40,000 nucleotides of DNA. Origin: Lysinibacillus capsici. GTDB taxonomy: Bacteria; Bacillota; Bacilli; Bacillales_A; Planococcaceae. Of this stretch, positions 1 to 28,311 are shown piece after piece (position 1 is the stretch's first letter; each line of letters opens with the position of its first letter). The notes beneath the pieces are model-generated. The model made no database searches, was not told the DNA's origin, and saw only the letters and a list, made by a program, of their open reading frames with translations. The position numbers were made by a program, and so were the translations under genes. The stretch covers positions 17,625 through 57,624 of the forward strand of contig NZ_PXXX01000022.1 of the NCBI RefSeq assembly GCF_003367505.1, read 5' to 3'.

Positions 1-366
1 ATGAGAGTCTACTACGCTAGTATGACGGGAAATGTCCGACGATTCATCCAAAAAACTGGATTAGATACAACTGACATTTCATGTAATCCAAATCCGAAAG
101 AGCCGTTTGTACTCGTCACATACACTTTCGGATTTGGCGCAGTACCAAAAGAAGTTGACGCTTGGTTGACGCAAAATTATAAGTTATTAAAAGGGGTAGC
201 TGTTAGTGGTAATCGTAACTGGGGCGATAACTACGGAAAAGCTGGTGACTTAATAGCTCGAAAATATAACGTACCTCTATTACACAAATTCGAGTTAGCA
301 GGTACAGACGAAGATGTACAAATTTTTAACGAAAGGTTGCTGATGGTTTGCGATACTACGAATTAA
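1..366 (+). CDS. nrdI: NrdI-like flavodoxin, ribonucleotide reductase class Ib accessory protein
   Basis: 121 aa, MRVYYASMTGNVRRFIQKTG FMN-binding-like start and TYTFGFGAVPKEV; directly upstream of nrdE/nrdF. May begin at the window edge. Confidence 0.9.
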   Translation: MRVYYASMTGNVRRFIQKTGLDTTDISCNPNPKEPFVLVTYTFGFGAVPKEVDAWLTQNYKLLKGVAVSGNRNWGDNYGKAGDLIARKYNVPLLHKFELAGTDEDVQIFNERLLMVCDTTN

Positions 367-2429: not shown

Positions 2430-2441
2430 GGAGGATTCTAC

Positions 2442-3401
2442 ATGACTATTTATACGGCTGCGAACTATGCGGTAGATGACGACTCATTTACCCAGGCTTT
2501 TTTAAAGCAGAATCATTCACAATTCTGGCTACCCGAAGAAATATCGCTAACACCCGATTTATTGACTTGGAAAGCTCTTTCAAAAGAAGAACAAAAAGCA
2601 TATATGCGTGTACTTGGAGGATTGACTTTACTTGATACAGAACAAGGAGTTGGTATACCTCGATTAATTCCTCATATTAAAGGGCATCAACGACAAGCGT
2701 TGCTTACCTTTATGTCAGCAATGGAAAACTCGGTCCATGCCAAGTCGTACTCTAACATCTTCTTAACTTTGGCAAATCGTGAGGAAATTAAAGAAGTATT
2801 CGATTGGGTACGGGAAAATCAGTATTTGCAAACAAAAGCTGACGTTATTGTGACGCAATATAAGGCAATCAAAAACAATGATGATATTTCACTTTATAAG
2901 GCGCTAGTTTCGTCAGTATTCCTTGAATCGTTCTTATTTTACAGTGGTTTCTACTACCCACTGTATATGTACGGACAAGGAAAATTAATGCAGGCTGGGG
3001 AGATCATAAACTTAATTATTCGTGATGAAAGCATACATGGTGTCTATGTCGGTTTATTAGCGCAAGAAATCTATAACCGACACTCATCAGATGTACAAAG
3101 CGAATTGTCTGCGTGGGTACATGAGACACTCGAAAAGCTATATCAGAACGAGGCGTTATATACAGCAGACATTTATGATGATGTCGGTTTGACATACGAT
3201 GTACTTAATTTCGTTCAGTACAACGCAAATAAGGCATTATCTAACTTAGGATTTGACGCTTATTACACACATGACAACTTTAATCCAATCGTTTTAAACG
3301 GACTATCAACGAAAACAAAATCGCATGATTTCTTTTCAATGAAAGGTAATGGGTATAAAAAAGCAACTGTCGAACCAATTCAAGACTCGGACTTCTATTA
3401 G
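2442..3401 (+). CDS. nrdF: Class Ib ribonucleoside-diphosphate reductase beta subunit
   Basis: 319 aa, E/H metal ligand pattern ([22 protein letters not shown]), adjacent to nrdE. Confidence 0.95.
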
Positions 3402-3415
3402 AAAGGAACGATTCT

Positions 3416-3670
3416 ATGGTAAAAGACATCGAGCATCCCGATATAACGCACGCATTGCGAACAGGCCATGATCGGGAAACCTGGCGTAATATACAAAACG
3501 CAAAGCTGCTTACGGAATCAGTACCACGTGATTATTACGGAGACATTATTGACTTAAAGAACGACCATTACGTCGTGATTCCGACAGGCTATAAGATATT
3601 GCACAGTAACTTACAACGTTATTTGGAAGAAAGAAAAGGCTTCGAATTTAATTACGTATTCAGCGATTAG
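3416..3670 (+). CDS. Hypothetical protein
   Basis: 84 aa ORF tightly packed in the operon with an upstream GAAAGGA RBS. Confidence 0.7.
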   Translation: MVKDIEHPDITHALRTGHDRETWRNIQNAKLLTESVPRDYYGDIIDLKNDHYVVIPTGYKILHSNLQRYLEERKGFEFNYVFSD

Positions 3671-3681
3671 GAGGAAAACAC

Positions 3682-4335
3682 ATGGGACTGCCTAAAGATA
3701 CGATGTTATACGGATTTGCTGAAAAATTGACGCGAGAACAATGTGAGTATGTCGATAGTATTTTTGATAATCAAGTAACGATTGTAAACGCAAAGGCTGG
3801 GAGTGGTAAGACTACACTTGCAGTTGCCTGCGCAGCACTACTCGGAAAACCTCTCGTATATATTTTCGCTCCAGTCGAGGAAGGCAAGATGGGTTTTCGT
3901 CCAGGTACTCAACGTGATAAAGAAGCTGAATACTATCAACCATTAATTGACGCTCTATATGAAATCGGCGAGAATCCGTCAAAAGTAATCTATGATGCTG
4001 AAAATATCGAAGCACAAAAGCGTGGCGACGTTTGGGTGTATCCTCGGAGTCACATCTTCGCTCGCGGGACGAATATCAAGGATTCGACGGTGATTATAGC
4101 TGAGGCCCAGAATTTTACGCGAGGTGAACTTAAAAAGGTCCTTACGCGAATTCATGATAGCTGTACGGTAATTATCGAAGGACATGACGGCCAGAACGAC
4201 TTGCCAAATCCGAATAAGAGTGGATTTGTACCGTATATCGAACATTTAGCAGCTTATGAATTTGTAAATGTCGTGCGGTTAAAGAAGAACTTCCGAGGTC
4301 GTTTATCGACTATTGCGGATGAAATGACTTGGTAG
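3682..4335 (+). CDS. PhoH-like ATPase
   Basis: Walker A AKAGSGKTTLA, FAPVEEGKMGFRPGTQRDK, IIAEAQNFTRGELKKVLTRI. Confidence 0.9.
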   Translation: MGLPKDTMLYGFAEKLTREQCEYVDSIFDNQVTIVNAKAGSGKTTLAVACAALLGKPLVYIFAPVEEGKMGFRPGTQRDKEAEYYQPLIDALYEIGENPSKVIYDAENIEAQKRGDVWVYPRSHIFARGTNIKDSTVIIAEAQNFTRGELKKVLTRIHDSCTVIIEGHDGQNDLPNPNKSGFVPYIEHLAAYEFVNVVRLKKNFRGRLSTIADEMTW

Positions 4336-4347
4336 GAGGGGATTTCA

Positions 4348-4560
4348 ATGAAACGGTATACAATTGGCTTAAACGTAAACGATTCGTCAGAATTATTACA
4401 AGCAGCTACGGACATTCAAGCGTTCATTGATACGTTAGGTGTCGCAAGTGAGCTAGACATACAAGTGAGTGTTAATCCGTTATTGTCACAATCTGAAAAT
4501 ACTAACGTTATCGGGTTTGCGATGAAAACTGAGGAAGATTACGAGGAGGATGAAGAGTAA
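4348..4560 (+). CDS. Hypothetical acidic protein
   Basis: 70 aa ORF, GGAGGG RBS, stop overlaps start of next gene. Confidence 0.65.
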   Translation: MKRYTIGLNVNDSSELLQAATDIQAFIDTLGVASELDIQVSVNPLLSQSENTNVIGFAMKTEEDYEEDEE

Positions 4561-4973
4561 TGAACGAACAACAAGCACAAAAAATCGAGAGAGTGGCAAA
4601 AATGTCGCCAATTAACGATAAACTAACAGAAATGTATGATATGCAAACGAAACTAGACCAACGCATTATTACCGAGCGAGGTATATCAAAAACGACTGAC
4701 GAGTGGGTGGTCGGATTAACTATCGCAATGGAATCTGAGATTGACGAGATTCGTCGCGAGGTTAATTGGCGTTGGTGGAAAAATAGTAAGCCGATTGATC
4801 AAACTGCTTTGCAAGAAGAAATCGTGGACGTGTGGCACTTCTTATTATCTCTTTCTAGAGTAGTCGGAATGTCTCCGGACGATATTCATCGCATTTACAT
4901 GGAAAAGAACGCTGAAAATCACGCAAGGCAAAGTGGTACTAGCGAAAAGGAAGGGTATGAGGTATCGAAATGA
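4560..4973 (+). CDS. dUTPase_2/MazG-fold nucleotide pyrophosphatase (dimeric dUTPase-like)
   Basis: ESEIDEIRREVNWRWWK and EEIVDVWHFLLSLS, all-alpha NTP-PPase motifs. Confidence 0.85.
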   Translation: MNEQQAQKIERVAKMSPINDKLTEMYDMQTKLDQRIITERGISKTTDEWVVGLTIAMESEIDEIRREVNWRWWKNSKPIDQTALQEEIVDVWHFLLSLSRVVGMSPDDIHRIYMEKNAENHARQSGTSEKEGYEVSK

Positions 4974-5344
4974 GTGGATGTCCGAATGAATTCGGTATTT
5001 ACAGCAGAATGGTGACTTTAAAAATGCCAAATCATCTCTTTAAAAAGAACGGTGGGTACTATGTTGATAAAACGGAGTGCGATATTGACCAATGTTTAGT
5101 TGATGAAATCCGATTCTTATGGAGTAAAGGAGTTGTCACAACAGGTTCTTGTTGTGGACATGGAATAAATCAAGGAATGATTAATGTGTTAGAGTCAAGC
5201 GTAAATAAAATGATTGAATTAGGTTATGAATTACTAGACATTCCAGAGCCTTTCTGGAAATATTCGTTTATACCAAAATCTAAACACAAACAGGAGAAAC
5301 TCAATGACGAAAATCGAACGCAAAATAAACGTACTAGACGATAA
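4970..5344 (+). CDS. Hypothetical protein, Cys/His-containing
   Basis: 124 aa ORF, ATGA overlap with upstream gene; VVTTGSCCGHG motif; its 3' end overlaps thyX. Confidence 0.65.
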   Translation: MSGCPNEFGIYSRMVTLKMPNHLFKKNGGYYVDKTECDIDQCLVDEIRFLWSKGVVTTGSCCGHGINQGMINVLESSVNKMIELGYELLDIPEPFWKYSFIPKSKHKQEKLNDENRTQNKRTRR

Positions 5345-6032
5345 AGGGTATGTAATGATCCACGATGTACTTGGAACAGATTTAACGGTAGCAAATGCGG
5401 CTCGCGTAAGTTACGCAAAGAAGTCCGCAACATTGACCGATGGTGATAAGCGATTAATAGACTTTCTAGCGCGGGAGGGGCATACTTCGCCCTTCCGCCA
5501 CGTGATCGCACAATTCGAATTTAATGCGCCATTGATGGTCGCTAGGCAACATTGGAAATACGTTGTAGGATCGTCAATGCTCGAAGCTACTGGAGATAAT
5601 ATGGATGCTTGGAACGAATCGAGTCGTCGTTATGTAACGGAAGAACCGACATTCTACGTACCACAGCCATATGAATGGCGATCAGCACCAGAAAACAGTA
5701 AACAAGGTTCAGGCGATATAGTTCGTTTTGAAATTGGAGAATCTGCAACAAGTGCGCTCATACAACATGTTGATGTATGCATTAAATTGTACGAGGACGC
5801 TATTTCTAGCGGAATTTGTGCTGAGCAAGCACGCCTATTCTTGCCAGCATACGGAATGTACGTTAAATACTACTGGACAGCATCGTTACAAAGCGTCTGT
5901 CACTTCCTAAATCAGCGTTTAGCTCATGATTCTCAAGTTGAGATACAAATGTATGCGAAGGCAGTTCTTGAACTTATAAAACCGCATTTTCCGATCAGTG
6001 TTGAAAAATTAGTATCGGAGACTTCCGAATGA
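5304..6032 (+). CDS. thyX: Flavin-dependent thymidylate synthase
   Basis: ThyX-type RHxxxxFxxN..RQHWKYVVGSSM, SSRRYVTEE, FLPAYGMYVKYYWTASLQSVCHFLNQRL. Confidence 0.93.
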   Translation: MTKIERKINVLDDKGYVMIHDVLGTDLTVANAARVSYAKKSATLTDGDKRLIDFLAREGHTSPFRHVIAQFEFNAPLMVARQHWKYVVGSSMLEATGDNMDAWNESSRRYVTEEPTFYVPQPYEWRSAPENSKQGSGDIVRFEIGESATSALIQHVDVCIKLYEDAISSGICAEQARLFLPAYGMYVKYYWTASLQSVCHFLNQRLAHDSQVEIQMYAKAVLELIKPHFPISVEKLVSETSE

Positions 6033-10191: not shown

Positions 10192-10559
10192 CTAACCAAG
10201 ACATGCACAACGAAATTTCATCTGCATTTACCCGTTTTAAAAAAAGTAAGACTAACCGTCAAAATCGTATTGAATATGTAGCAAAACTGACTGAAAGATA
10301 CTTTCTTCAACATGAGAAAATGCCTGCAACACATGTGCTAGATCGCATGGCTACGTTAATATTGCAAGATGAATTGGCGGATATAGACCGTATGAAGATG
10401 CGTAACACAGAATACCCACTTCTTAGTGAGACTCAAGAGTTATACCGTAAAAAAGATGAACGTTCACTAAAAGCTGCACAAGATGTAGCAACAGACGGTG
10501 TTGATTATCGTATTAGAACACGTGATAGTAATCGTCGTATGCGTGAAGTGTTTGGATAA
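10185..10559 (+). CDS. Hypothetical protein
   Basis: 124 aa ORF overlapping upstream CDS, followed by a terminator. Confidence 0.65.
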   Translation: MLTNQDMHNEISSAFTRFKKSKTNRQNRIEYVAKLTERYFLQHEKMPATHVLDRMATLILQDELADIDRMKMRNTEYPLLSETQELYRKKDERSLKAAQDVATDGVDYRIRTRDSNRRMREVFG

Positions 10560-10578
10560 TATTTGGATATAATCGTTT

Positions 10579-10607
10579 AAGACTACCTTTTGGTAGTCTT
10601 TTTTTTG
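10579..10607 (+). terminator. Rho-independent terminator
   Basis: GACTACC-TTTT-GGTAGTC followed by TTTTTTTT. Confidence 0.92.
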
Positions 10608-10921
10608 TTGTAAAAATAACTATTTACGGGGATTAATATTTGATATTTATGTTGACGTTAGTTAATAAAAATGGCCATTGAAAGAGTAGTTGCACTAGCG
10701 ACTTTCTTAAAATTTATTAGCAAATTGGTTAACTTTCAGACAGCATTGATAACAAAAAGCTAAAGAAGTTGAAGAAAGCAAAAAAGACACTACCCCAAAA
10801 GAGTAGCGCCCACCAAAAGTTAATAAAATGAAGGTTAAGGCTGACACCCTTAGCCTTCACCCTAAATATAAAATATTTATACATGATAAACAATAAATCA
10901 TATTTAAAAGAGGATAAAATT

Positions 10922-11008
10922 ATGATGACTGTTACTTTTGTCTTAATTGGTTTAACATGGATAGTAATAGGAGCAACTTTTATTACTATTCGAAAAAATA
11001 AACGATAG
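10922..11008 (+). CDS. Small hydrophobic single-TM peptide
   Basis: ATG ATG ACT GTT ACT TTT GTC ... CGA TAG, about 28 aa: MMTVTFVLIGLTWIVIGATFITIRKNKR; upstream AGAGGA. Confidence 0.45.
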   Translation: MMTVTFVLIGLTWIVIGATFITIRKNKR

Positions 11009-11022
11009 GTGGCGGAAATTAT

Positions 11023-11256
11023 ATGTCTGAAAATTACTCTTTCAACTCACGTGAAGAATTAACAGAGTATATAATAGATGAAATCATTAATACAACTGAA
11101 GCATTAGAAATACTTCAATGCTCACGACAAAATCTGAACAACTTAGTGAAACGTGGTGTGTTAACACCAATTAAAGATCTACCGAGAGATAGATTGTTCT
11201 TTAAGGAAGATATTGTTAAGCGTAAAAATGATATGGATAAGAAAGCTAAAAATTAG
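11023..11256 (+). CDS. Helix-turn-helix DNA-binding protein
   Basis: 77 aa, EALEILQCSRQNLNNLVKRGVLTPIKDLPRDRLFFKEDIVKRK resembles MerR/excisionase-type HTH_17. Confidence 0.7.
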   Translation: MSENYSFNSREELTEYIIDEIINTTEALEILQCSRQNLNNLVKRGVLTPIKDLPRDRLFFKEDIVKRKNDMDKKAKN

Positions 11257-11281
11257 CACATCAAATTGGTGTGCTTTTTTT
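11254..11281 (+). terminator. Rho-independent terminator
   Basis: AGCACATC-AAATT-GGTGTGCT followed by TTTTTT. Confidence 0.85.
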
Positions 11282-11415
11282 ATCCTATATCCATACTTTA
11301 TATCGTTTTGTACCTTTACATTATAGGAAGGTAAGAATCAAGCAAACTCACGTAACTAACGCAAGATGTAAAAGGCTCGGTTATATTATGTGAAAAGAGT
11401 ACTGTTTTAAGGAGG

Positions 11416-11610
11416 TTGCTGTGGATGACAAACAATAAATTTTACTACGCATATTCACCTAATCTATATCGATATTTAAAGGCGACAGGTTTCCGTTATA
11501 TTTGTACTGGACTTAATGAATCAACCATGCGTCAGTTCTGGCAATATGAACGCACACCAGAACTAAGCGCAGCCCTTACGTCATATGCGGAGAATAAGCC
11601 TTCTAAATAA
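11416..11610 (+). CDS. Hypothetical protein
   Basis: 64 aa ORF with AAGGAGG upstream. Confidence 0.6.
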   Translation: MLWMTNNKFYYAYSPNLYRYLKATGFRYICTGLNESTMRQFWQYERTPELSAALTSYAENKPSK

Positions 11611-11634
11611 GGCAGTGCTAGGAGGTTAAGTGGA

Positions 11635-12108
11635 ATGATGGTAAATCAAACGAAACGTGGATTCGTACAGATTTCTAACGCTATATTCACGCACTATAAC
11701 TTTTATCCGAAGTATAATGGTACTTCAATACAAGTTTACGGGTATCTTACAAAATTAAATAACTCCGATTATGGATATGCATTTCCGACTAATATACAAG
11801 TTATGCGAGATTTAGGGATTAGCGATAAAACCTTTAATAATGCGGTAAAGACGCTTGTTGCTTGTGGATTGGTGACAGTTTGTAAACATAAAGGAGCGAT
11901 GTTTCACAACAACTTGTATTATGTACATGAACCTATAGAAGATATGACGGAGTTTTTCGCTAAGTATCCAGAAGCAAAAGAGGTGTGGGAAGCGAAACAA
12001 GCAACGGTTGATAAAGTAGCTAGACGAAAGTCAGTTGATAAAGAAGCGTATAAAGATGCTCAGACAGCAGCAAAAAGTGATGTAGACGCTGTTTTAGAAT
12101 GGTTATGA
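11635..12108 (+). CDS. Winged-helix (HTH_36-like) DNA-binding/replication-initiator-like protein
   Basis: YGYLTKLNNSDYGYAFPTNIQVMRDLGISDKTFNNAVKTLVACGLVTVCK. Confidence 0.7.
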   Translation: MMVNQTKRGFVQISNAIFTHYNFYPKYNGTSIQVYGYLTKLNNSDYGYAFPTNIQVMRDLGISDKTFNNAVKTLVACGLVTVCKHKGAMFHNNLYYVHEPIEDMTEFFAKYPEAKEVWEAKQATVDKVARRKSVDKEAYKDAQTAAKSDVDAVLEWL

Positions 12109-12118
12109 CAGATAGCAC

Positions 12119-12348
12119 ACAGTAGTTTTTACTGTACGACACAGTAAAATTTACTGTAAGGCACAGTAGTTTTTACTGCGTATAAATATTTACCGTATAA
12201 ATATTTACTTATAAATATTTACTATAAATAATTCCATTTACGATTATTTGCTAACGCAAATAATCGTAGCTATCAATAATAATATATCTTAGTGTAATTC
12301 TTTTAAATAATACGATAAAGAAATACACCTCACAGTAATTTTTACTGT
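12119..12348. repeat. Array of ACAGTA-N5-TACTGT palindromes with an AT-rich triple repeat and a hairpin
   Basis: Palindromes at 12119-12135, 12141-12157, 12163-12178 and 12332-12348; TATAAATATTTAC at 12181, 12196 and 12210; perfect inverted repeat at 12239-12268. Confidence 0.85.
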
Positions 12349-12385
12349 GCGCTATTTGCGATGTTATTAATGGTAAAACTAAAGT

Positions 12386-12420
12386 AAAAAAAGACACCCT
12401 AACAATAAATTAAGGCGTCA
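12386..12420 (-). terminator. Rho-independent terminator for reverse-strand genes
   Basis: Reverse strand GACGCCTTAA-TTTATTG-TTAGGGTGTC followed by TTTTTTT. Confidence 0.75.
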
Positions 12421-12431
12421 ACAATCATTGA

Positions 12432-12548
12432 TTATTCTATATGTGATTCGTATTTTCTCGGATTTGGCTGGTCTTTTTCAAGTAGCCATACACGACCAAT
12501 CTTACGACAAAAGACTTCTCGCGGCACTTTTTTAGTCGTTGTTTTCAC
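12432..12548 (-). CDS. Small hypothetical protein (38 aa)
   Basis: GTG start, VKTTTKKVPREVFCRKIGRVWLLEKDQPNPRKYESHIE; overlaps the end of the upstream reverse gene, just before the reverse-strand terminator. Confidence 0.35.
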   Translation of the reverse strand: MKTTTKKVPREVFCRKIGRVWLLEKDQPNPRKYESHIE

Positions 12549-12729
12549 CTCGTTTGTTGATTATTTCTAGTATGGTGTTAACTATGAAAAGAATGACAAT
12601 TAAGACGTACAGTGCTATGAAAAAATAGTCTGACGTCGTTAGATTATTAAAGTCTGTTGTCCGAGGAATTAAAATGCTCAGTGCAATGATGATAGCAATG
12701 TCAAATATTCGTTTGAGAGTCGTTTGCAT
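12532..12729 (-). CDS. Small membrane protein
   Basis: 65 aa with two predicted hydrophobic segments. Confidence 0.55.
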   Translation of the reverse strand: MQTTLKRIFDIAIIIALSILIPRTTDFNNLTTSDYFFIALYVLIVILFIVNTILEIINKRGENND

Positions 12730-12788
12730 ATTGTTAGTGGTTACGATAAAATACTAAGTATAAAGGAGGCGCTAACCTCCTTCATATG

Positions 12789-12995
12789 CTACTTGCGACG
12801 TTTTCCTTTGCGATGGGGGCGTCGCTTTTTGTTGTTCTTACGCTTGTTATTCTTTAATTGCTGTATGTTGAGAGCAAATGAAGAAAGTCCGCCTAAGATA
12901 CCAACAATTGTAGCTATGTGTTTTAGTATAGCTTCGTAATCCACTTGGTTCACCTCCTTTTCTATACTCTTATTATAACATTCGCATTGACCCAC
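12789..12995 (-). CDS. Small membrane protein with very basic C-terminus
   Basis: KHIATIVGILGGLSSFALNIQQLKNNKRKNNKKRRPHRKGKRRK; likely real start is an internal GTG after GAGGTG (MDYEAILK...). Confidence 0.5.
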   Translation of the reverse strand: MGQCECYNKSIEKEVNQVDYEAILKHIATIVGILGGLSSFALNIQQLKNNKRKNNKKRRPHRKGKRRK

Positions 12996-13065
12996 GTCTA
13001 TATAAAATACCGTATTTTTAACGTTAATTTACCGTAAAATTTTAAGAAAGGAACGATGCTAGGAT

Positions 13066-13437
13066 ATGACTAAATTAAACGATAAACAAATTGCTGCTAT
13101 TACGATACTAAGTCAACCGAAACGTGGTGGGCTTACTTATAAAGAAGTTGCAGAGGAAGTTGGAGTAGCAGAGTCAACACTGCATTTGTGGCGCAAAAAT
13201 GACGCATTTAATGAAGAACTAAAGCGACAGATTATGCGTGATACGATTGATAGATTACCAGAAGTAATGGCGTCTATACCTGATCATATTATTAATGACG
13301 GCAATGCAGCGTTATTCAGAACGTTATTACAAGCGCATCAAATGCTAACAGAGAAAGTTGAAGTGTCAGACGGTAATAAAGGTACAGATATTGATGCGAT
13401 TAAGGCAGAGATTGAACGTATGAGAAAAGGTGAGTGA
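13066..13437 (+). CDS. Terminase small subunit-like (helix-turn-helix, phBC6A51-type)
   Basis: LNDKQIAAITILSQPKRGGLTYKEVAEEVGVAESTLHLWRKNDAFNEEL; AAAGGA RBS; upstream of the large terminase. Confidence 0.82.
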   Translation: MTKLNDKQIAAITILSQPKRGGLTYKEVAEEVGVAESTLHLWRKNDAFNEELKRQIMRDTIDRLPEVMASIPDHIINDGNAALFRTLLQAHQMLTEKVEVSDGNKGTDIDAIKAEIERMRKGE

Positions 13438-14102
13438 TTGGGAGAAACTCCGAAAAGGGGAATGAATAGTCTATTTATATAGGAAGAAACTATGAATAGT
13501 AGACGAATTGGTGTACGAGCGGTTCGGAGTGTGTAGTGTGGTTTATTGGGCAACAGCCGAGAATGGACGCGTACCTAAAACGCTTTGAAAGATAGGGTGT
13601 ATATGGATAGTATAGAGGCGGTAGGATATGCAGGATTTTATACAAATATAAGAGAAATCGCTATCCGATTACTATTAGTAAGTGTACGTAAATAGAGGGA
13701 TTATGGCGTGTGTATAAGAATTTGCATACGCTTATTTTACCTACAAAAGACAAACGTTGATATATCAATGGTTGAAGATAAATCTATTTTACATAATTAA
13801 GCTTATGGGAAGTTAGAAACGAATAATTATTCACTCACTATTCAATGCGTTAAATAAACGTTAATGATTTGAAATTCTCCCAAGCCGCCTATTTTCAAAT
13901 CGCTGTTTCTGATGGCAAACAAATCAGCGCACCAAAATTTCACTTTGGTCTTACGGAAAGCAACCGTTAATTTGTATCATTGTTTAACGGTTCTAACGTA
14001 GCCTACACGTCGTTCTGCGTAATCAAAAGATAAAATATAAGGAACGTATTTAAAACGCTAAATAAACGCGAATAAACAGCTAAAATGAAAGGAGGCGCTA
14101 AT

Positions 14103-15866: not shown

Positions 15867-17453
15867 ATCGGACTATTTAGAAAGAACGACAAAGAAATGC
15901 AAGAAACGGGAACTGTCACCTACACATATGACGCATTTAAACCTGGCGAACAATTTCCGCCAGCTAACGCAATTGAACGTATAGCAAAGTATCGACGTAT
16001 GAAAAAGTTATATGACGGAAAACAGTCCGAACTATATGATAGAGCAACAGCGCTCCTAAAAGATACGCCACATGCTAAACAATTACAGTCACTCTATATT
16101 GCAGCCAATATTGCCGACATCATTGTTACGAAAGCAAGTGATTTACTTGTCGGAGAACCACCAATCTTCGATAGCGGATTAGCAGACGATACGGAGCAAC
16201 AATTTGCAATTAACTCCTACGTTGAGGAAAACGATCTTGTTAAGTTAATTCACGAATCTGCGCTTGCTAATGGTTATCGTGGCGATTCATGGATTAAAGT
16301 TCGTTACGACTATCGCCAGGACTATAGCGCTCTAACAATGAGAGGCCTACCTATCCCAGACGATGCGGTAATGGAGCCTATTATCGAACATATTGCCGCA
16401 GACTGTGTATTCCCAATTACAAGTGACGGTAACGTGAAGAAGTTTAAGTCAGTAGTCATTGCAAGCGTAGAATGGGTAGTTTCTAAAAAGGAAGAAACAC
16501 CGTACTTAAACGTTGAGCACCACCTGCCAGGCTATATCATTAATGAGCGATATAAACTTACGACTTATGAAGGTGGAGTTGACAACAAATACGGCTATCC
16601 AGTACAGCTTTTCTTAATTGATAAAAAGGTCAGCGATAGCGAAATTGTTCCGACAGGAGTTCCGCACTTACTCGTTCATCACATTCCATATAAATCAACG
16701 GACGACCAATGGGAGGGTAAAGGAACATTAGAAGTGCTAGAAACGATTTTAATTGCGATAAATGACCGATTAGCGCAGCTCGATTATGTTCTATGGAAGC
16801 ATAGTGATCCGACAGCGTATGGACCAGAACTAGGGACGCATGGTAACGCAAGATTAACAGGCGCTTATATTCCTTTAACTGCCGAAGATAAAACACCAGG
16901 CTATATGACGTGGGATGGACAGTTGAATAGTGCATTTAAAGAACTTGAAACATTGATTGGCATGGCGTTTCAAATCGCAGAAACTCCGCAATGGCTATTC
17001 GGTACTGTACTTGGAGATCAAAACGCTGGAGGAACAGGCACATCGCATACAGATGGCGCTGCTATTAAAGCGCGCTTTATGCCAATATTGACGAAAGTAG
17101 CTCGTATTAGAACGCACTACGACCGCGCTCTACGAGATGCACTATATAACTGCCAATTGCTTGATATAGCGCATGGCGAAGCTAATTTCGAAGCAGTCTA
17201 TCCGGTTATTCACTGGCAAGATGGCTTACCTCATTCCGAAAAAGAGCAAGCCGAAATTATGGCAATTCGTACTGGCAATAAGCCGACAATTGACGTAGCT
17301 ACAGCGATTAAACGTATGGACGGTGTAGACGACATTCAAGCTACCGAAATCATGACGCGGATTGATGCCGATACAGAGCGTGAAGTTGGTACAGTCGATG
17401 CTTCCATCTTTAATGACCCTTATACAGAAATGGACGAAGGGACTGACGCCTGA
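15867..17453 (+). CDS. Portal protein (SPP1 gp6-like)
   Basis: LYIAANIADIIVTKASDLLVGEPPIF, WLFGTVLGDQNAGGTGTSHTDG. Possible ATC start at 15867 (MGLFRKNDKEMQ...); otherwise ATG 15897. Confidence 0.9.
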   Translation: MGLFRKNDKEMQETGTVTYTYDAFKPGEQFPPANAIERIAKYRRMKKLYDGKQSELYDRATALLKDTPHAKQLQSLYIAANIADIIVTKASDLLVGEPPIFDSGLADDTEQQFAINSYVEENDLVKLIHESALANGYRGDSWIKVRYDYRQDYSALTMRGLPIPDDAVMEPIIEHIAADCVFPITSDGNVKKFKSVVIASVEWVVSKKEETPYLNVEHHLPGYIINERYKLTTYEGGVDNKYGYPVQLFLIDKKVSDSEIVPTGVPHLLVHHIPYKSTDDQWEGKGTLEVLETILIAINDRLAQLDYVLWKHSDPTAYGPELGTHGNARLTGAYIPLTAEDKTPGYMTWDGQLNSAFKELETLIGMAFQIAETPQWLFGTVLGDQNAGGTGTSHTDGAAIKARFMPILTKVARIRTHYDRALRDALYNCQLLDIAHGEANFEAVYPVIHWQDGLPHSEKEQAEIMAIRTGNKPTIDVATAIKRMDGVDDIQATEIMTRIDADTEREVGTVDASIFNDPYTEMDEGTDA

Positions 17454-18733
17454 TGCGTGAAGTACCTCAGCCAGATTACGATTATGATGTTAAAAAGATA
17501 CAAAAAGCTTATACAAAAGCATTAAAAGACGTAAAAAATGAACTTAATAACTTATTTCTTACGGATTTCGAGAGCGCGCAGATCATCGCCGTTGAAAAGT
17601 CTATCCGTAACATATTATCCGACATTGAAAAATACGGAAATGAATGGTCTGCCGTCGCCATAACTAAATCAGCAACAGAAGGTATCGCATCGACTATTTA
17701 TACTTTAGAGCTTACTAAGTCTTATGAGGATGCTCTTAAAATTGTAAAATTTAATACGGTAAATAAACGACTTATTGCTGCAGCTATAGCAGATACTCAG
17801 TCAGATTTACTCGCAATAACGCAAAACATGGAGCGACAAGCAAAGATAGCAATTAGAAAAGCAACGGCCGAAGCCATGCGCGCTAAACTTACGTCTGGTA
17901 TTAACGCTACATCTGACATATCAAAAGAGATACGGGAACGTATCATTAATGCCACCGGCGTTGCGATTATTGACTCTAGGGGGAATCGATGGAAAGTTGA
18001 AAACTACGCAGATGTAGTCGCCAGAACTAATATGATGAACGCGCATCGCGAAGCAAGTATTAACGAAGCGTTATCGGAAGAGTCTTACTATGGTCGAATT
18101 AGTCGTCATGGAGCTAAGGACGCTTGCAGAGAATATGAAGGTAAAATCGTAAAATTAGTAGCAGATGCACCTGGAGATTACCCTTACATTGGCGATATAC
18201 CAAGAAAAAAACTGTTCCATCCTCGTTGCAAACATTTGGTCAGCCCTTTGCGTGATCCAGAGAAGTATAATAACCCAAACGTATGGGAGAAAAAACCAAC
18301 AGAATCAACACTTAAACATGCTAATCTAGGAGACTTTACGATAAAACCTCGCACACAAGAGATTTCTAAAATGAAAAGTGGAGGGCATGGTCAAGATAAT
18401 ATTAGTTTCTTAAAAGAAAATAATATTGATTACAATATTGAAAAGATTTTTTCTAACGGAGTTCGCATAGGTAACGTTCCTAGTCATAAGTCTAAAACAA
18501 AGAAAACTGGAGTAGGGCAGTCATGGTTTCCTGAAAATTGGACTAAAGATGATATTGAAAAAGCAGGTTTACATGTAGCCAACAATCCTGATAATAAAAT
18601 TGTTAACGGATTTCAAATATTTGGCGTTTACAAGAATATTGAAATTGGTGTATTTTTAAACTTAGACAATAATAAAGTTATCAGTACTATTTTCCCTACA
18701 AATAAGCAATCTCATTTAGAGGAAGGTGATTAG
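17453..18733 (+). CDS. Phage minor head protein (MuF/SPP1 gp7-like) fused to a C-terminal EndoU-like nuclease domain
   Basis: MuF region TNMMNAHREASINEAL...HPRCKHLVSPLRDPEKY; C-terminus GGHGQDNISFLKENNIDYNIEKIFSNGVRIGNVPSHKSKTKKTGVGQSWFPENWTKDDIEKAG...TIFPTNKQ resembles bacterial EndoU. Confidence 0.88.
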   Translation: MREVPQPDYDYDVKKIQKAYTKALKDVKNELNNLFLTDFESAQIIAVEKSIRNILSDIEKYGNEWSAVAITKSATEGIASTIYTLELTKSYEDALKIVKFNTVNKRLIAAAIADTQSDLLAITQNMERQAKIAIRKATAEAMRAKLTSGINATSDISKEIRERIINATGVAIIDSRGNRWKVENYADVVARTNMMNAHREASINEALSEESYYGRISRHGAKDACREYEGKIVKLVADAPGDYPYIGDIPRKKLFHPRCKHLVSPLRDPEKYNNPNVWEKKPTESTLKHANLGDFTIKPRTQEISKMKSGGHGQDNISFLKENNIDYNIEKIFSNGVRIGNVPSHKSKTKKTGVGQSWFPENWTKDDIEKAGLHVANNPDNKIVNGFQIFGVYKNIEIGVFLNLDNNKVISTIFPTNKQSHLEEGD

Positions 18734-25121: not shown

Positions 25122-28100
25122 TTGGCTGTAAATTTGACAGCTGTGTTTCGTCTACGGGATCAAGGTTCTTCGCGCTTACGACGAATCACGGATATGATGA
25201 ATCGAATGAACAGAGCAGGACGTACAGCGAGTGAGGGCATATCGAGAGTACAAACAGCAACTAATCGTCTAGGAAGTACTGTCTCCACAACATCTAATCG
25301 TATGAATGGATTTGCGGCTAGTGTAAGTCGTTTGCACGTCGGATCGAATGGACTGAGTGCGTCTTTCGGTGGGTTACAAAGCACTTTAATTGGACTCGCT
25401 AGCGCATATATGACTGTACAAGGAGCAGCGAAAGCGTTTGATGCAACAATCGGAGCTGCGGCACGTTACGAGCAATCAGAGGTTGCAGTTAAAGCAATAT
25501 TTAATGACCCGAAAAAGTCAGATGCTTATTTGAAGATGGTTGATAAGATGGCGATAGACAGTCCGTTGCTTAATAGTGGAGATATGCTAAAGTCGTCTAA
25601 AACGCTTGTAGCAATGACAAAAGACGTCGGGGATTTAGGTAAAGCATGGTCAATAATTGAACGTCTGATGGTTCTTGATCCTACGCAAGGAACTGACGGA
25701 GCAGCATTTGCCCTTAATTAAGGGGGCAGTAAAAGTGGGTTATATGCTGGAACGAACCTTAGAGCCTAACGTACCAAAGTGTAAAAATCGTTAGGATTGG
25801 TCAATCAGCAGGGAAGGCGACAACCAAGCCACCCTCAACGACTATCGGAATATCCGACTATTATATAGGTGACTATATAATAGAACCCCACCGTGTATAT
25901 CGTGAGATATGCTAATGATATAGTCTGTTCTTTACGTGAAAGCGTAAAGAGTGTAGCAGAAATGACTACACCCTAACTTTAGTGAGTTAGAGTAACAAAA
26001 GGCAAAGAGATGTGGCAAGGAGACGCACTTTCGATGGTTGAGCGTTTTGGATTGAATAAAGGTGAGCTAAACGACATTAAAAAAATGGCAATTCCAGAAC
26101 AAATAGCGGAAATTAATAAAATGCTTAATAAAATGGGTATCACCCAGGAAACTGTAAATGCAATGGGCGAAACTACACTCGGCTATTGGGCGCAGATTCA
26201 AGAACGAGTCGGTAAGTTTTTACGGCAAGTTGGTAATCTCGGTAACTCTAAACTTGGTGAGACACTAGGAAAAATCGTTGAAGCCTTCGATAATATCGAC
26301 CTAGACGGCATGGCAAAAAAGTTAGACGCCAAGCTCGCAGGATTAGTCGATAATGCAATCGCTTTTGGAAAGTTTGTCTGGAAATGGCGAGAGCCAATCG
26401 CTTATATTGCAGGAGCACTTACTGCAGCAATGGGCGCATTTGCCATTGTAGGCGTCATTGCAGCGTTAGCAAATCCAGTTACGTTAATCGCTGCAGGAAT
26501 AGCCGCAGCCGCAGTCGGTTTCAAGGCGCTCTATGATAATAGTAAGGTTTTCAGAGGGTTTATAAACGGTATAAGAAATGCTGTAAAAACGGTTTCAAGG
26601 ATATTTGAGTCTATGTTCATACTAATTAAAGGTGGCTTCAAGGATTATGGTAAAGGACGAAAAATTTTAGAAAATTTAGGACTGGAAGAAAAACAAATAA
26701 AAACAGTTATCCGATTTGCTTATGGCATTAAAGGCGCATTTGATAAGGTGAAAGCTGTTTTCAAAAGTATTTCGTTTATCTTTTCAGGACAACATAAAGC
26801 ATCTATCGACATACTAAAAAGTGTAGGATTTTCTGATGAAAAGATTACTAGTATACGTAAATTCGGAAATAGCCTAAAATCAGCTTTTGACACAGTAGGA
26901 AACATTTTCGGTGGTGTAGGTTCTATATTGTCAGGTGAGGGTTCAGCAGACTTAATAGCTACATTAGGGCTGTCTCCCGAAGTTGCTTCCGTAGTAGACA
27001 GTGTTATCAATAAAATTACATCTAAGATAAAATCACTGTGGAAAGCATTTAAAATGAATGGAGTCAGTGGACTCGTCGATGCAATTTACGGAAAAGGTAC
27101 ATTTGAAGCGATTAAAACGAAATTTGAAGAAGTCAAAGCATATATAGCCGAAAAAGTGACGCAATTTAAAGGTGTATTTGATCGTCTAAAAGAAGCGTTC
27201 TCTAAAGCGTGGACTACTATTTCTGACATCATCTCAAATGTGTGGTCGATTATTGAGCCGTATTTGAGTGGCTTTTGGAACATTTTACAGGTCATTGGGG
27301 ATATCGCAATGAAGGTTTTTGACAACATCATCGCTCCAGCAATCTCGTTTCTAGTTCAACTATTTTCAACGCTGTGGTCAATCGCGAAGCCTGTCCTTGA
27401 ATTATTAGGAATCGCATGGGAGGCGCTCTCAGCAATCATTAAATGGGCATGGGACAACGTGTTGGCTCCGTTAGTTGACTTCATTTTAACTGGCGTTAAA
27501 AACGCGTTAGAAGGATTTTCAGGAGCACTATCTATCGTTCAAGGATGGTTCGAAACACTTAGTGGTTGGATTTCGACTGCAAAGGGACATGTAAAGGACT
27601 TTATCGATTCAATTTCTAATGTTAAATTACCTGGTTGGATTACAAAGGGAATCAGCGCAGGAATAAACTTTGCCGGTAATTTTATTGGTGTTGGGAATGG
27701 GAAGGGTGAGTCTCCGAAATCAAATTATCATGGATTAGATTATGTGCCGTATGACGGTTATTGTATAGCCGCTTAATAGAGAGATCTATTTCGAATAATC
27801 AACCAAAATCGGTAAAAGCTAAGTTGTGAAATCTAATTAACCGAAATTTTACAATATGCTAATACCGAGGTAAGCGAGAACATCACTCGCCACCGTAACG
27901 CATAGGGGTTGAGCGATATGAGAGCAAAAATATCCCCACGAGTGGTTGACACCTTAACGTTAATTTAATGTAGGTGAAAATGTATGCTGAGCCGGGTACG
28001 AATAAGAAATTAGTAAGCGCCTATCGATAAGATATGGTGCTTTTTGACGTACCGTAATGCGAGGAAACTCCCGGAAGTAGAGGATAAAAAGCCTTTACGA

Positions 28101-28311
28101 TAACAAACTGTATTCGGCACGACTACACAAAGGCGAACGCGTTTTAACTGCGCGAGAAAATCGTGATTATTCAGACAGTAACAGCGGTGGTCCAGGCAGT
28201 GGTGTTTTAATCACTGGTAACTCGTTTACAGTACGTGAAGAAGCCGACATTGAGAAAATTGCGTACGGTATTGCAAAACTAATCGAAAAGGAGCGTGTTC
28301 AGATTGGCTAA
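25122..28311 (+). CDS. Tail tape measure protein, three exons: join(25122..25714, 26003..27758, 28111..28311)
   Basis: TTG start after AAAGGAGG. The three segments total 2550 nt = 850 codons including stop; junctions read ...GTDGAAFAL|KEMWQGDALSMVERFG... and ...LDYVPYDG|YSARLHKGERVLTAREN... Confidence 0.85.
25715..26002 (+). ncRNA. Group I intron (IA-like), ORF-less, in tape measure gene
   Basis: P1: exon UGCCCU / IGS GGGGCA with U.G at the splice site (25714.25723); P7 GACUAU 25840-25845 / AUAGUC 25920-25925 following CUCAACGACUAUC; GAAA-capped and other P9-like hairpins; intron ends in G. Confidence 0.88.
27759..28110 (+). ncRNA. Second ORF-less self-splicing-type intron in tape measure gene, group I-like, subclass unassigned
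   Basis: Hairpin CGGUUAU-UGU-AUAGCCG spans the 5' junction with U.G at 27758; intron ends in G28110; possible P7 GGUACG 27995-28000 / CGUACC 28048-28053 enclosing a P8-like stem; removal restores YSARLHKGERVLTARE in frame. Confidence 0.7.

What the first reader, a model, noticed from the sequence alone, without database searches (positions are those of the whole stretch)
25122..28311. Tape measure gene split into three exons by two ORF-less introns
The ORF track shows two disconnected ORFs (25122-25721, 26010-27776) and a third unannotated open segment to 28311. Excising 25715-26002 (288 nt) and 27759-28110 (352 nt) yields one frame: 593 + 1756 + 201 = 2550 nt, 849 aa. Junction peptides (AAFAL|KEMWQGD and VPYDG|YSARLHKGERVLTARE) read as natural tape measure sequence, including the common LHKGERVLTARE motif. 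Phage group I introns are best known from nrd, thymidylate synthase, polymerase and lysin genes. Two in a single tape measure gene is unusual and could delay or tune production of a tail length-setting protein.
Basis: partly seen in the sequence, partly recalled or inferred. Interest (0 to 1): 0.88.

Follow-up and report, generated by a model that had tools for sequence, protein, structure and literature searches.

The report
Two introns split a phage tape-measure gene
The tail tape measure gene of a Lysinibacillus prophage really is interrupted by two small ORF-less group I (self-splicing type) introns at exactly the predicted junctions, but such introns, including two or more per tape measure gene, are already documented in Bacillus-group phages, so this is a well-supported new example of a known thing.

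Summary
Removing 25715-26002 (288 nt) and 27759-28110 (352 nt) joins three open segments into one 2550-nt, 849-aa tape measure gene. Uninterrupted homologues read AAFAL|KEMWQGD and VPYDG|YSARLHKGERVLTARE with no indel at either junction.

Both inserts are group I introns:
- Rfam Intron_gpI scores them 47.3 bits (E 2.6e-10) and 28.9 bits (E 8.8e-5).
- Both have a U.G pair at the 5' splice site in P1 and a terminal G.
- Both have a full P3-P9 core with the P7.1 extension typical of subgroup IA.
- Covariation is strong among distinct relatives: 26 for intron 1 and 76 for intron 2 (91-94% of cells paired against 33-49% in slid controls).

Neither intron has an ORF, and the 40-kb window has no detectable homing endonuclease.

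Close relatives show presence/absence polymorphism. One 98%-identical phage has intron 1 but not intron 2. The exon next to intron 2 carries a ~100-nt imported tract, so intron 2 arrived by DNA recombination.

The claim that this is unusual is not supported. Tourasse & Kolsto (2008) described tape measure introns at three sites, two per gene, in B. cereus-group prophages. The intron-2 family sits mostly in tape measure genes. There is no evidence for a regulatory role. Splicing itself is inferred, not shown.

The parts
25122..25714 (+). Tape measure exon 1 (593 nt). TTG start with a GGAGG ribosome-binding site 7 nt upstream. Ends after the second base of a Leu codon (CT|C).
   Evidence: ORF list and sequence. 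N-terminus MAVNLTAVFR matches the consensus start of homologues. Junction confirmed by homologues and by DNA of L006.
25715..26002 (+). Intron 1: 288-nt ORF-less group I intron, IA-type. Helices P1, P3, P4, P5/P5a, P6/P6a, P7, P7.1, P7.2, P8, P9, P9.1 and P9.2, with no obvious P2. In-frame TAA at 25719-25721. Terminal G at 26002.
   Evidence: Rfam Intron_gpI 47.3 bits, E 2.6e-10. All hand-drawn helices are canonical, and the unconstrained MFE fold recovers most of them; P7 is a pseudoknot helix that an MFE fold cannot show. Covariation on 26 distinct relatives: 94% paired against 35-49% slid, 42/52 pairs with changes on both sides. P7: 77% against 23-43%. z = -4.17. No ORF of 40 aa or more on the + strand inside it.
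25708..25729 (+). P1 of intron 1. Exon bases 25708-25714 (UUGCCCU) pair with the internal guide sequence 25723-25729 (GGGGCAG). U25714.G25723 is the wobble pair at the 5' splice site.
   Evidence: Direct reading of the sequence and pair list. The G25729A difference in L005 turns U.G into U-A.
26003..27758 (+). Tape measure exon 2 (1756 nt).
   Evidence: Annotated on its own as 'hypothetical protein C7B89_19595 [Lysinibacillus capsici]' (P0005, 100% identity).
27759..28110 (+). Intron 2: 352-nt ORF-less group I intron, IA-type. Helices P1, P2, P3, P4, P5/P5a, P6/P6a, P7, P7.1, P8, an extended P9 and P9.2. In-frame TAA at 27774-27776. Terminal G at 28110. Its 3' tail (28074-28110) is near-invariant across the family.
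   Evidence: Rfam 28.9 bits, E 8.8e-5. Hand-drawn structure with all canonical pairs. Own model R2 gave 76 distinct relatives: 91% paired against 33-42% slid, 38/38 pairs compensatory. P7 is 97% paired with A-U<->G-C covariation in 27 sequences. z = -4.17. The tail is 97-100% identical in Staphylococcus and Bacillus phages.
27755..27771 (+). P1 of intron 2: CGGUUAU (27755-27761) pairs with AUAGCCG (27765-27771), and U27758.G27768 lies at the 5' splice site. The guide bases A27765-A27767 can instead pair with the first three exon-3 bases UAU (28111-28113), forming P10.
   Evidence: Rfam alignment and pair list. The UAU repeat at 27759-27761 and 28111-28113 is read from the sequence. P10 is my inference.
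28111..28311 (+). Tape measure exon 3 (198 nt plus the stop at 28309-28311). Encodes YSARLHKGERVLTARE...VQIG. No start codon of its own.
27740..28210 (+). Tract imported together with intron 2 (co-conversion tract). It covers a few bases of exon 2, the intron, and about 100 nt of exon 3, inside a background that is otherwise 97-100% identical to L005.
   Evidence: Window against L005: 100% identical over 27400-27679, 60-80% over the first 100 nt of exon 3, and 95% or more from about 28211. The first 50 nt of exon 3 are 96% identical to L013, which carries an intron-2 relative at the same site.

Best explanation
The tape measure gene of a ~60-kb Lysinibacillus myovirus-type (pro)phage with a PBSX-like tail module is interrupted by two unrelated, ORF-less group I introns of the IA type.

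Mechanism. The gene is transcribed as one pre-mRNA. Each intron folds into the group I core. Its internal guide sequence pairs with the end of the upstream exon (P1, with a U.G wobble pair at the cleavage site). A free guanosine bound at P7 attacks the 5' splice site. The freed exon end then attacks after the intron's terminal G, joining the exons in frame. The result is one 849-aa tape measure protein. Unspliced RNA would yield only truncated products, because each intron has an in-frame stop within 18 nt of its start and exon 3 has no start codon.

Origin. The introns are selfish passengers that spread between related phages at the DNA level by recombination, most likely during co-infection. 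A homing endonuclease supplied by an ORF-carrying relative or by another phage may have helped. They are not a device of the phage.

What is shown: the anatomy, the junctions, the RNA family membership with covariation, the presence/absence polymorphism and the recombination tract. What is inferred: actual splicing, its efficiency, and the route of mobility.
For: Junctions:
The single-ORF homologues align across both junctions with no indel.
- The intron-less locus L006, and L005 which lacks intron 2, fix the insertion points to the base.

Group I identity:
- Rfam hits to both introns.
- U.G in P1 and a terminal G at both introns. The terminal G is kept in L016 although the neighbouring base changed.
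- The core helices covary in relatives: A5 is 94% paired with 42/52 compensatory pairs; A8 is 91% paired with 38/38 compensatory pairs.
- P7, which was not in the models, is also supported.

Gene identity:
- PHROGs tail length tape measure families.
- The gene sits between the tail chaperone-like gene and the LysM/baseplate genes.

Selfish and mobile nature:
- L016 has a 94.8%-identical intron 1 at the same codon, in a gene whose protein is only 45-55% identical and whose flanking DNA is about 73-83% identical.
- L013 has an intron-2 relative at site 2.
- 8 of 120 homologue proteins end in ...VPYDGYCIAA*, which is read-through into this intron's P1.
- A recombination tract flanks intron 2.
- Relatives of intron 2 carry HNH or other endonuclease ORFs in the P5 loop.
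- Related introns interrupt terminase, DNA polymerase and other tape measure genes.

Precedent: PMC2504315.
Against: - No RNA or protein data were available, so splicing is inferred.
- Both Rfam scores are below the curated 50-bit gathering score.
- P10 is weak or absent for intron 1 (only one possible pair, my reading).
- Intron 1 has no P2.
- No homing endonuclease was found in the window, so the way the ORF-less introns moved is unknown.
- The covariation alignments were fitted to my models, which inflates the percentage paired. The slid controls and the unmodelled P7 test mitigate this but do not remove it.
Confidence: 0.9

Rival explanations
1. The introns are real group I elements, but one or both no longer splice. 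The gene would then be a pseudogene in a decaying prophage, and the intact look of the exons would reflect recent inactivation.
For: No experimental data. Both Rfam scores are below gathering. Intron 1 lacks P2 and has a weak P10. Neither intron has an ORF, which in the usual homing cycle is the stage before loss (PMC2504315).
Against: Every core helix is intact with canonical pairs. Differences between copies keep the pairing: P1 G25729A in L005, and my reading of the three-way alignment shows pair-preserving changes in P8, P7.2 and P9.2 of L016. All three exons are open and conserved to the residue at the junctions. The rest of the 40-kb window has an uninterrupted set of replication, head, tail and lysis genes. 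The same intron/site combination persists in several diverged phages, which is unlikely for a lethal insertion in an essential tail gene.
Confidence: 0.06
2. The introns splice and have also been co-opted as regulators: slow or conditional splicing delays or limits tape measure synthesis.
For: Only the general point that two sequential ribozyme steps must finish before a full-length protein can be made, and that early in-frame stops (25719-25721, 27774-27776) make unspliced RNA unproductive.
Against: A 98%-identical phage lacks intron 2, and 10 of 12 species-level relatives lack both introns, so neither is needed for this tail module. The same RNA families sit in unrelated genes such as terminase and DNA polymerases. 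Early stop codons are a general feature of bacterial group I introns (PMC2504315).
Confidence: 0.03
3. There is no splicing. The three segments are made as separate polypeptides, or joined by some recoding event, and the gaps are ordinary intergenic spacers.
For: Genome annotation treats exon 2 as a separate hypothetical protein (P0005). An ATG at 26010 could start exon 2.
Against: Exon 3 has no in-frame start codon. The last 7 nt of exon 2's coding sequence upstream of the ATG (26003-26009) match homologues (KE before MWQGD). The spacers are structured group I RNAs with covariation support. Homologues are single ORFs.
Confidence: 0.01

Closest known systems
Group I introns TMP-IVS1, -IVS2, -IVS3a and -IVS3b in tape measure genes of Bacillus cereus-group prophages (Tourasse & Kolsto 2008, NAR 36:4529, PMC2504315)
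   Same: Same host gene type. Up to two introns per gene. IA-class ribozymes. Many lack a homing endonuclease gene. Stop codons lie within the first 27 nt of the intron. Distribution among related prophages is patchy. Different introns share one site, and related introns sit at different sites. A B. mycoides plasmid prophage carries an intron-2-family core directly upstream of its downstream tape measure piece, so intron 2 is probably a relative of that published set (inference).
   Different: The host genus is Lysinibacillus. The tape measure family is different: about 740-850 aa with a PBSX XkdO-like context in a myovirus tail module, against more than 1200 aa in lambdaBa01-like siphoviruses. 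The insertion sites differ: after codon 198, and at the VPYDG|Y..LHKGE motif near the C-terminus. I could not see the published site alignment (a figure), so site identity is untested. That study was also computational, with no splicing assay.
Multiply split tape measure genes in sequenced phages: Bacillus phage vB_BtS_BMBtp13, Caldibacillus phage CBP1, Staphylococcus phage PT1-1, 'Arcanobacterium' phage TPWB06
   Same: All carry members of the intron-2 RNA family (R2 scores 67-185 bits) with the same near-invariant 3' tail, inserted in tape measure genes. BMBtp13 has two group I introns and PT1-1 has three.
   Different: The exon sites are different: TM[WY]EDQG and NNMA[AT]QED near the N-terminal or middle parts. 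The BMBtp13 copy carries an HNH endonuclease ORF in the P5 loop, whereas the window copy has no ORF. The records annotate the pieces as separate CDSs, not as introns.
Classical phage group I introns (T4 td/nrdB/nrdD, SPO1 DNA polymerase, SPbeta nrdE/nrdF, Twort orf142 with three introns, Cluster J mycobacteriophage capsid and tail introns)
   Same: Same ribozyme class and the same expected GTP-initiated two-step splicing. Insertion in conserved stretches of essential genes. Twort (from my own knowledge) and Cluster J (PMC3706429) show experimentally that structural and multi-intron phage genes are spliced efficiently.
   Different: Those examples have biochemical proof and this one has none. 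In this phage the classical targets (nrdE, nrdF, thyX) are present but uninterrupted.

Membership tests
Group I intron (Rfam RF00028) | Match to the family covariance model | tested here: inconclusive
   Intron 1 scores 47.3 bits (E 2.6e-10) and intron 2 scores 28.9 bits (E 8.8e-5). Both are statistically significant but below the curated 50-bit gathering score. The Rfam model also misses bona fide intron-2 relatives.
Group I intron (Rfam RF00028) | Conserved core: P3-P8 and P4-P6 domains, with pairings maintained by covariation | tested here: met
   Intron 1 family: 52 pairs, 94% paired, 42 pairs with double changes, slid controls 35-49%. Intron 2 family: 38 pairs, 91% paired, all 38 with double changes, slid controls 33-42%. 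Caveat: the alignments were fitted to the models.
Group I intron (Rfam RF00028) | P7 pseudoknot helix (guanosine-binding site), with the 5' strand before P3' and the 3' strand after P8 | tested here: met
   P7 was not part of either model. Intron 1: GACUAU/AUAGUC matches the Rfam consensus segments, 77% paired against 23-43% slid. Intron 2: GCAUA/UAUGC, 97% paired, with A-U<->G-C covariation in 27 sequences.
Group I intron (Rfam RF00028) | P1 formed by the 5' exon end and the internal guide sequence, with a U.G wobble pair at the 5' splice site | tested here: met
   U25714.G25723 in a 7-bp P1, and U27758.G27768 in a 7-bp P1. The positions coincide with the junctions fixed independently by homologues.
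Group I intron (Rfam RF00028) | Terminal guanosine (omega-G) as the last intron base | tested here: met
   G26002 and G28110. It is conserved in L005, L016, L013 and the other family members.
Group I intron (Rfam RF00028) | Guanosine-dependent self-splicing | not testable with these tools
   Needs in-vitro transcription with GTP labelling, or RT-PCR.
Subgroup IA group I introns | Extra helices P7.1/P7.2 between P7 (5' strand) and P3 (3' strand) | tested here: met
   Intron 1: P7.1 (4 bp) and P7.2 (11 bp), with all pairs showing double changes in relatives (helices 7 and 8). Intron 2: P7.1 (5 bp), 99% paired, all pairs covarying (helix 7). The IA1 versus IA2 split was not determined.
Mobile (homing) group I intron | Intron-encoded homing endonuclease | tested here: not met
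   No ORF of 40 aa or more on the + strand inside either intron. No HNH, GIY-YIG or LAGLIDADG domain in any ORF scanned in the window. Relatives of intron 2 do carry HNH or other endonuclease ORFs in P5.
Mobile (homing) group I intron | Presence/absence at one site among close relatives, with co-converted flanking exon | tested here: met
   Intron 2 is absent from the 98%-identical L005. The adjoining ~100 nt of exon 3 are only 60-80% identical to L005, while the first 50 nt are 96% identical to the intron-bearing L013. For intron 1 there is no clear tract, only much higher identity of the intron (94.8%) than of its flanks (about 73-83%).
Phage tail length tape measure protein | Sequence similarity to tape measure families, and position between the tail chaperone gene and the baseplate/distal tail genes | tested here: met
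   PHROGs 991, 58, 1272, 8927 and 4200, E 1e-25 to 5e-16. Gene order is sheath, tube, Phage_TAC_5, this gene, LysM, YqbQ, baseplate J. Homologues are named phage tail tape measure protein.

The most novel reading that the evidence does not exclude
The intron-2 lineage may be a specialist on tape measure genes. It has re-targeted to at least five different sites in tape measure genes across Bacillota phages (Lysinibacillus, Bacillus, Caldibacillus, Staphylococcus). It changes its guide sequence but keeps a 37-nt 3' tail almost invariant, at 97-100% identity where the catalytic core is only 70-80% identical. Under this reading, its ORF-less copies, like the one here, are still actively mobilised in trans by endonucleases encoded in sibling introns or by free-standing genes in co-infecting phages. 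The invariant tail would then be a functional recognition or 3'-splice-site module rather than a trace of recent common descent.
Probability: 0.2. Interest if true: 0.45.

Novelty: new member of a known kind. Interest (0 to 1): 0.27.

Why it matters
Practical value is mainly for annotation. The gene is deposited as separate 'hypothetical protein' fragments. The same error recurs in many phage and prophage records: 8 of 120 homologue clusters end in the intron-encoded ...YCIAA*, and CBP1, BMBtp13, PT1-1 and TPWB06 list tape measure pieces as separate genes. Rfam's group I model misses most of the intron-2 family, so a dedicated model would recover many split tail genes.

Biologically, the locus is a clean natural series with 0, 1 and 2 introns and a visible recombination tract. 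That makes it a usable system for asking how introns without an endonuclease gene spread between phages. It does not open a new kind of mechanism.

Tried and rejected
- The Rfam gathering-threshold scan of the window found nothing. The permissive scan was needed.
- The whole-window permissive scan found no further introns at E<0.01. The only other hit in the region was a CRISPR-DR41 match at E=9, which is chance.
- I looked for a homing endonuclease that could mobilise the ORF-less introns. Pfam scans of 30 ORFs, plus inspection of the small ORFs in 10500-14100, found none.
- Exact-sequence look-up of the annotated exon-2 protein (P0005) to get the source contig failed: not on record.
- The element has no close relative in the annotated phage or plasmid collections. 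Only 65-69% identical head genes and short intron fragments were found.
- Model R1 (intron 1) does not hit intron 2 or the other tape measure introns, so the two introns are not recent duplicates of each other.
- The MFE fold proposed a 9-bp pairing between 27990-27998 and the terminal G plus the start of exon 3. I rejected it in favour of P9, because P9 covaries in relatives and the alternative is not possible in L013.
- I looked for a co-conversion tract around intron 1 by comparing the window with L016 and found none beyond background.
- A literature search for Lysinibacillus plus group I intron gave nothing relevant except an IStron survey.
Full report
**1. What is in the sequence**

The window carries two + strand ORFs, 25122-25721 and 26010-27776, and a further open stretch that ends at the stop 28309-28311. 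Removing 25715-26002 (288 nt) and 27759-28110 (352 nt) gives 593 + 1756 + 201 = 2550 nt and a continuous 849-aa product. Intron 1 lies after the second base of a Leu codon (CT|C). Intron 2 lies between codons (GGT|TAT). The third segment has no in-frame ATG, GTG or TTG after the stop at 28078-28080, so it can be expressed only if it is joined to exon 2.

**2. The gene and its setting**

The joined protein matches several PHROGs 'tail length tape measure protein' families, with E from 1e-25 to 5e-16. The window is a phage or prophage genome segment, with this gene order:
- Replication and nucleotide metabolism: nrdI, nrdE, nrdF, phoH, a dUTPase, thyX, a C5 methylase.
- Head: terminase, portal, a MuF-like minor capsid protein with an EndoU domain, scaffold, an SU10-type capsid protein.
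- Tail: sheath, tube, a Phage_TAC_5 chaperone-like gene, this gene, then LysM, YqbQ-like and baseplate J genes, and a large tail-fibre-like protein.
- Lysis: an M15 peptidase.

The tail module has the PBSX XkdK-XkdT layout, so 'XkdO-like' is a fair description. The host is Lysinibacillus. The exon-2 ORF is 100% identical to 'hypothetical protein C7B89_19595 [Lysinibacillus capsici]', and nearly all named homologues are from that genus. No close relative exists in the annotated phage or plasmid collections.

**3. Junctions tested against uninterrupted genes**

A protein search returned 214 homologues. The best 120 are listed, and many are single ORFs of about 720-835 aa that cover 100% of the spliced query. 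In an alignment of 19 of them, the uninterrupted proteins cross both junctions without a gap. They read ...QGTDGAAFAL|KEMWQGD... and ...VPYDG|YSARLHKGERVLTARE..., or close variants.

At the DNA level:
- L006 (an assembly of run SRR29693860) has neither insert.
- L005 (an assembly of run ERR7738273, 98% identical) has the 288-nt insert with only 2 differences, but runs straight through site 2.

The insertion points are therefore fixed to the base, independently of any RNA model.

**4. The inserts are group I introns**

Rfam. The gathering-threshold scan reports nothing. A permissive scan gives Intron_gpI at 25657-25948 (47.3 bits, E 2.6e-10) and at 27749-27991 (28.9 bits, E 8.8e-5).

Intron 1 structure. 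P1 has U25714.G25723 at the splice site. P3, P4, P5/P5a, P6/P6a, P7, P7.1, P7.2, P8, P9, P9.1 and P9.2 follow, with terminal G26002. Every pair is canonical, and the unconstrained MFE fold recovers almost all helices.

Intron 2 structure. P1 has U27758.G27768. P2-P9 and P9.2 follow, with terminal G28110. Its guide bases AUA (27765-27767) can swap from the intron's first UAU to exon 3's first UAU, which is a standard P1/P10 arrangement (my reading).

Folding energy. Both introns fold better than shuffles, with z = -4.17 each.

**5. Comparative test of the folds**

Exact-pattern scans of IMG/VR found 26 loci with the intron-1 core motif and more than 120 with the intron-2 tail. I built covariance models from the window copies plus close relatives (R1 and R2). 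They retrieved 40 matches (26 distinct) and 92 matches (76 distinct).

| Measure | Intron 1 family | Intron 2 family |
|---|---|---|
| Cells paired | 94.0% | 91.1% |
| Cells paired with partner slid | 35-49% | 33-42% |
| Pairs with changes on both sides | 42 of 52 | 38 of 38 |
| Covariation score | 0.34 | 0.64 |
| Covariation score, slid | 0.06 or less | 0.09 or less |

Because these alignments were fitted to the models, I also tested P7. It is a pseudoknot helix and was in neither model. It is 77% paired against 23-43% slid in family 1. In family 2 it is 97% paired, with A-U<->G-C exchange in 27 sequences. The P7.1/P7.2 helices between P7 and P3' place both introns in subgroup IA.

R1 does not hit intron 2, or any other site in the window, so the two introns are different lineages.

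**6. No ORF and no endonuclease**

Neither intron contains a + strand ORF of 40 aa or more. Pfam scans of 30 window ORFs, and inspection of the small ORFs in the 10.5-14.1 kb region, found no HNH, GIY-YIG or LAGLIDADG gene. Relatives of intron 2 in Bacillus phage BMBtp13 and Alicyclobacillus phage MMB025 carry an HNH or other endonuclease ORF inserted in the P5 loop. The window copy is therefore the ORF-less form of a family that also has ORF-carrying members.

**7. Evidence of movement**

(a) Site occupancy among species representatives. Of 12 species-representative genomes with this tape measure family, 10 are uninterrupted. L016 (Lysinibacillus sp. NPDC097195) has intron 1 at the same codon. 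L013 (Lysinibacillus sp. FJAT-14745) has a shorter (244 nt) intron-2 relative at site 2.

(b) Intron 1 in L016. It is 94.8% identical to the window copy, yet the host protein is only 45-55% identical and the flanking 300 nt are about 73-83% identical.

(c) Flanks of intron 2. The window and L005 are 100% identical over 27400-27679. They are 60-80% identical over the first 100 nt of exon 3, and 95% or more identical from about 28211 onward. The first 50 nt of exon 3 are 96% identical to L013. That is a co-conversion-type tract. It shows intron 2 entered an L005-like genome by DNA recombination rather than by reverse splicing.

(d) Read-through products. Eight of the 120 listed homologue clusters end in ...VPYDGYCIAA*, which is translation running into this intron's P1. 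Site 2 is therefore recurrently occupied in the genus.

**8. Comparison with what is known**

Tourasse & Kolsto (2008, PMC2504315) reported group I introns at three sites in tape measure genes of prophages from B. cereus, B. weihenstephanensis and all 11 B. anthracis genomes studied. E33L, KBAB4, AH820 and G9842 each carry two in one gene. The ribozymes are IA1 or IA2, many copies lack a complete endonuclease gene, and stop codons lie within the first 27 nt. The paper also mentions a tape measure intron in Lactobacillus phage JCL1032. That work was computational. Splicing of introns in phage capsid and tail genes has been shown experimentally in Cluster J mycobacteriophages (PMC3706429).

My own survey agrees:
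- Intron-2-family members lie in tape measure genes of CBP1, TPWB06, BMBtp13 and PT1-1, and of a B. mycoides plasmid prophage.
- BMBtp13 has two group I introns in or at the gene and PT1-1 has three.
- About 45 of ~77 collected family copies with a readable 3' exon sit at four or five distinct tape measure sites. I confirmed representative 3' exons as tape measure proteins by PHROGs.
- Intron-1 relatives sit upstream of a terminase gene (Acinetobacter phage) and in DNA polymerase III alpha genes (Bacillus phage WH1, L038).

What is new here is the host genus, the tape measure family and the two insertion sites, not the phenomenon.

**9. Mechanism and rivals**

The best-supported account is ordinary group I self-splicing of two selfish introns from the late tail transcript, restoring one 849-aa protein.

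- The regulatory idea has no support. Near-identical and related phages lack one or both introns, and early stops are a general trait of bacterial group I introns.
- A dead-intron or pseudogene reading is unlikely. All helices are intact, differences between copies preserve pairing (my reading of the alignment), and the exons and the rest of the phage genome are intact.
- Separate polypeptides are excluded for exon 3, which lacks a start codon.
- Splicing itself remains an inference until RNA or protein data are obtained.

**10. Verdict**

This is a new member of a known kind with low to moderate interest. Its main use is to correct annotation and to serve as a natural 0/1/2-intron series for studying how endonuclease-less introns spread.

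Noticed in passing
window 17453-18733 (+): A minor capsid protein (Phage_min_cap2, SPP1 gp7/MuF-like) carries a C-terminal bacterial EndoU nuclease domain. From memory, this architecture resembles the MuF-type polymorphic toxins of temperate phages.
   Followed up: no
window 1-6032 (+): nrdI, nrdE, nrdF, a dUTPase and thyX are present and uninterrupted. These are the classical homes of phage group I introns, yet here only the tape measure gene is invaded. The whole-window permissive Rfam scan found no other intron.
   Followed up: partly
window as a whole; contigs of P0001-P0008 and others: Contigs carrying homologous tape measure genes cluster at 57-64 kb. The nearest sequenced phages are 59-65 kb: Lietuvens, phBC6A51, KLEB27-1 and Mgbh1, at only 65-69% DNA identity over head genes. 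The element looks like an undescribed ~60-kb Lysinibacillus myovirus or prophage, possibly extrachromosomal.
   Followed up: partly
L024 4418-5182; L025 8429-9193; L032 5184-5948; also L037, L007/L034, L033: Some viral contigs have three intron-1-family cores packed within about 770 nt. Several others have two, so those genes are split into very short exons by tandem group I introns. The host genes were not identified.
   Followed up: no
window 28074-28110; L001-L004, L009, L010, L013, L169: The last 37 nt of intron 2 (GAAGUAGAGGAUAAAAAGCCUUUACGAUAACAAACUG, which includes the P9.2 hairpin) are 97-100% identical in Staphylococcus, Bacillus, Clostridium-group and Lysinibacillus elements. The catalytic core in the same copies is only about 70-80% identical. 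The reason for this extreme conservation is unexplained.
   Followed up: partly
window 27749-27991; L001, L002: Rfam's Intron_gpI model barely detects the intron-2 family. It scores 28.9 bits here and gives nothing at E<0.001 in CBP1 or TPWB06, where my family-specific model scores about 180 bits. Standard annotation pipelines will miss these introns.
   Followed up: yes
window 27990-27998 with 28110-28118: The MFE fold pairs GCCGGGUAC, just after P7, with the terminal G plus the first 8 bases of exon 3, giving 9 bp. This is not possible in L013 and competes with a P9 that covaries. It is probably chance, but it could affect use of the 3' splice site.
   Followed up: partly
window 28295-28311: The next gene (LysM protein, GTG at 28295) overlaps the end of tape measure exon 3 by 17 nt. 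This suggests the downstream gene's translation is coupled to translation of the spliced exon 3.
   Followed up: no
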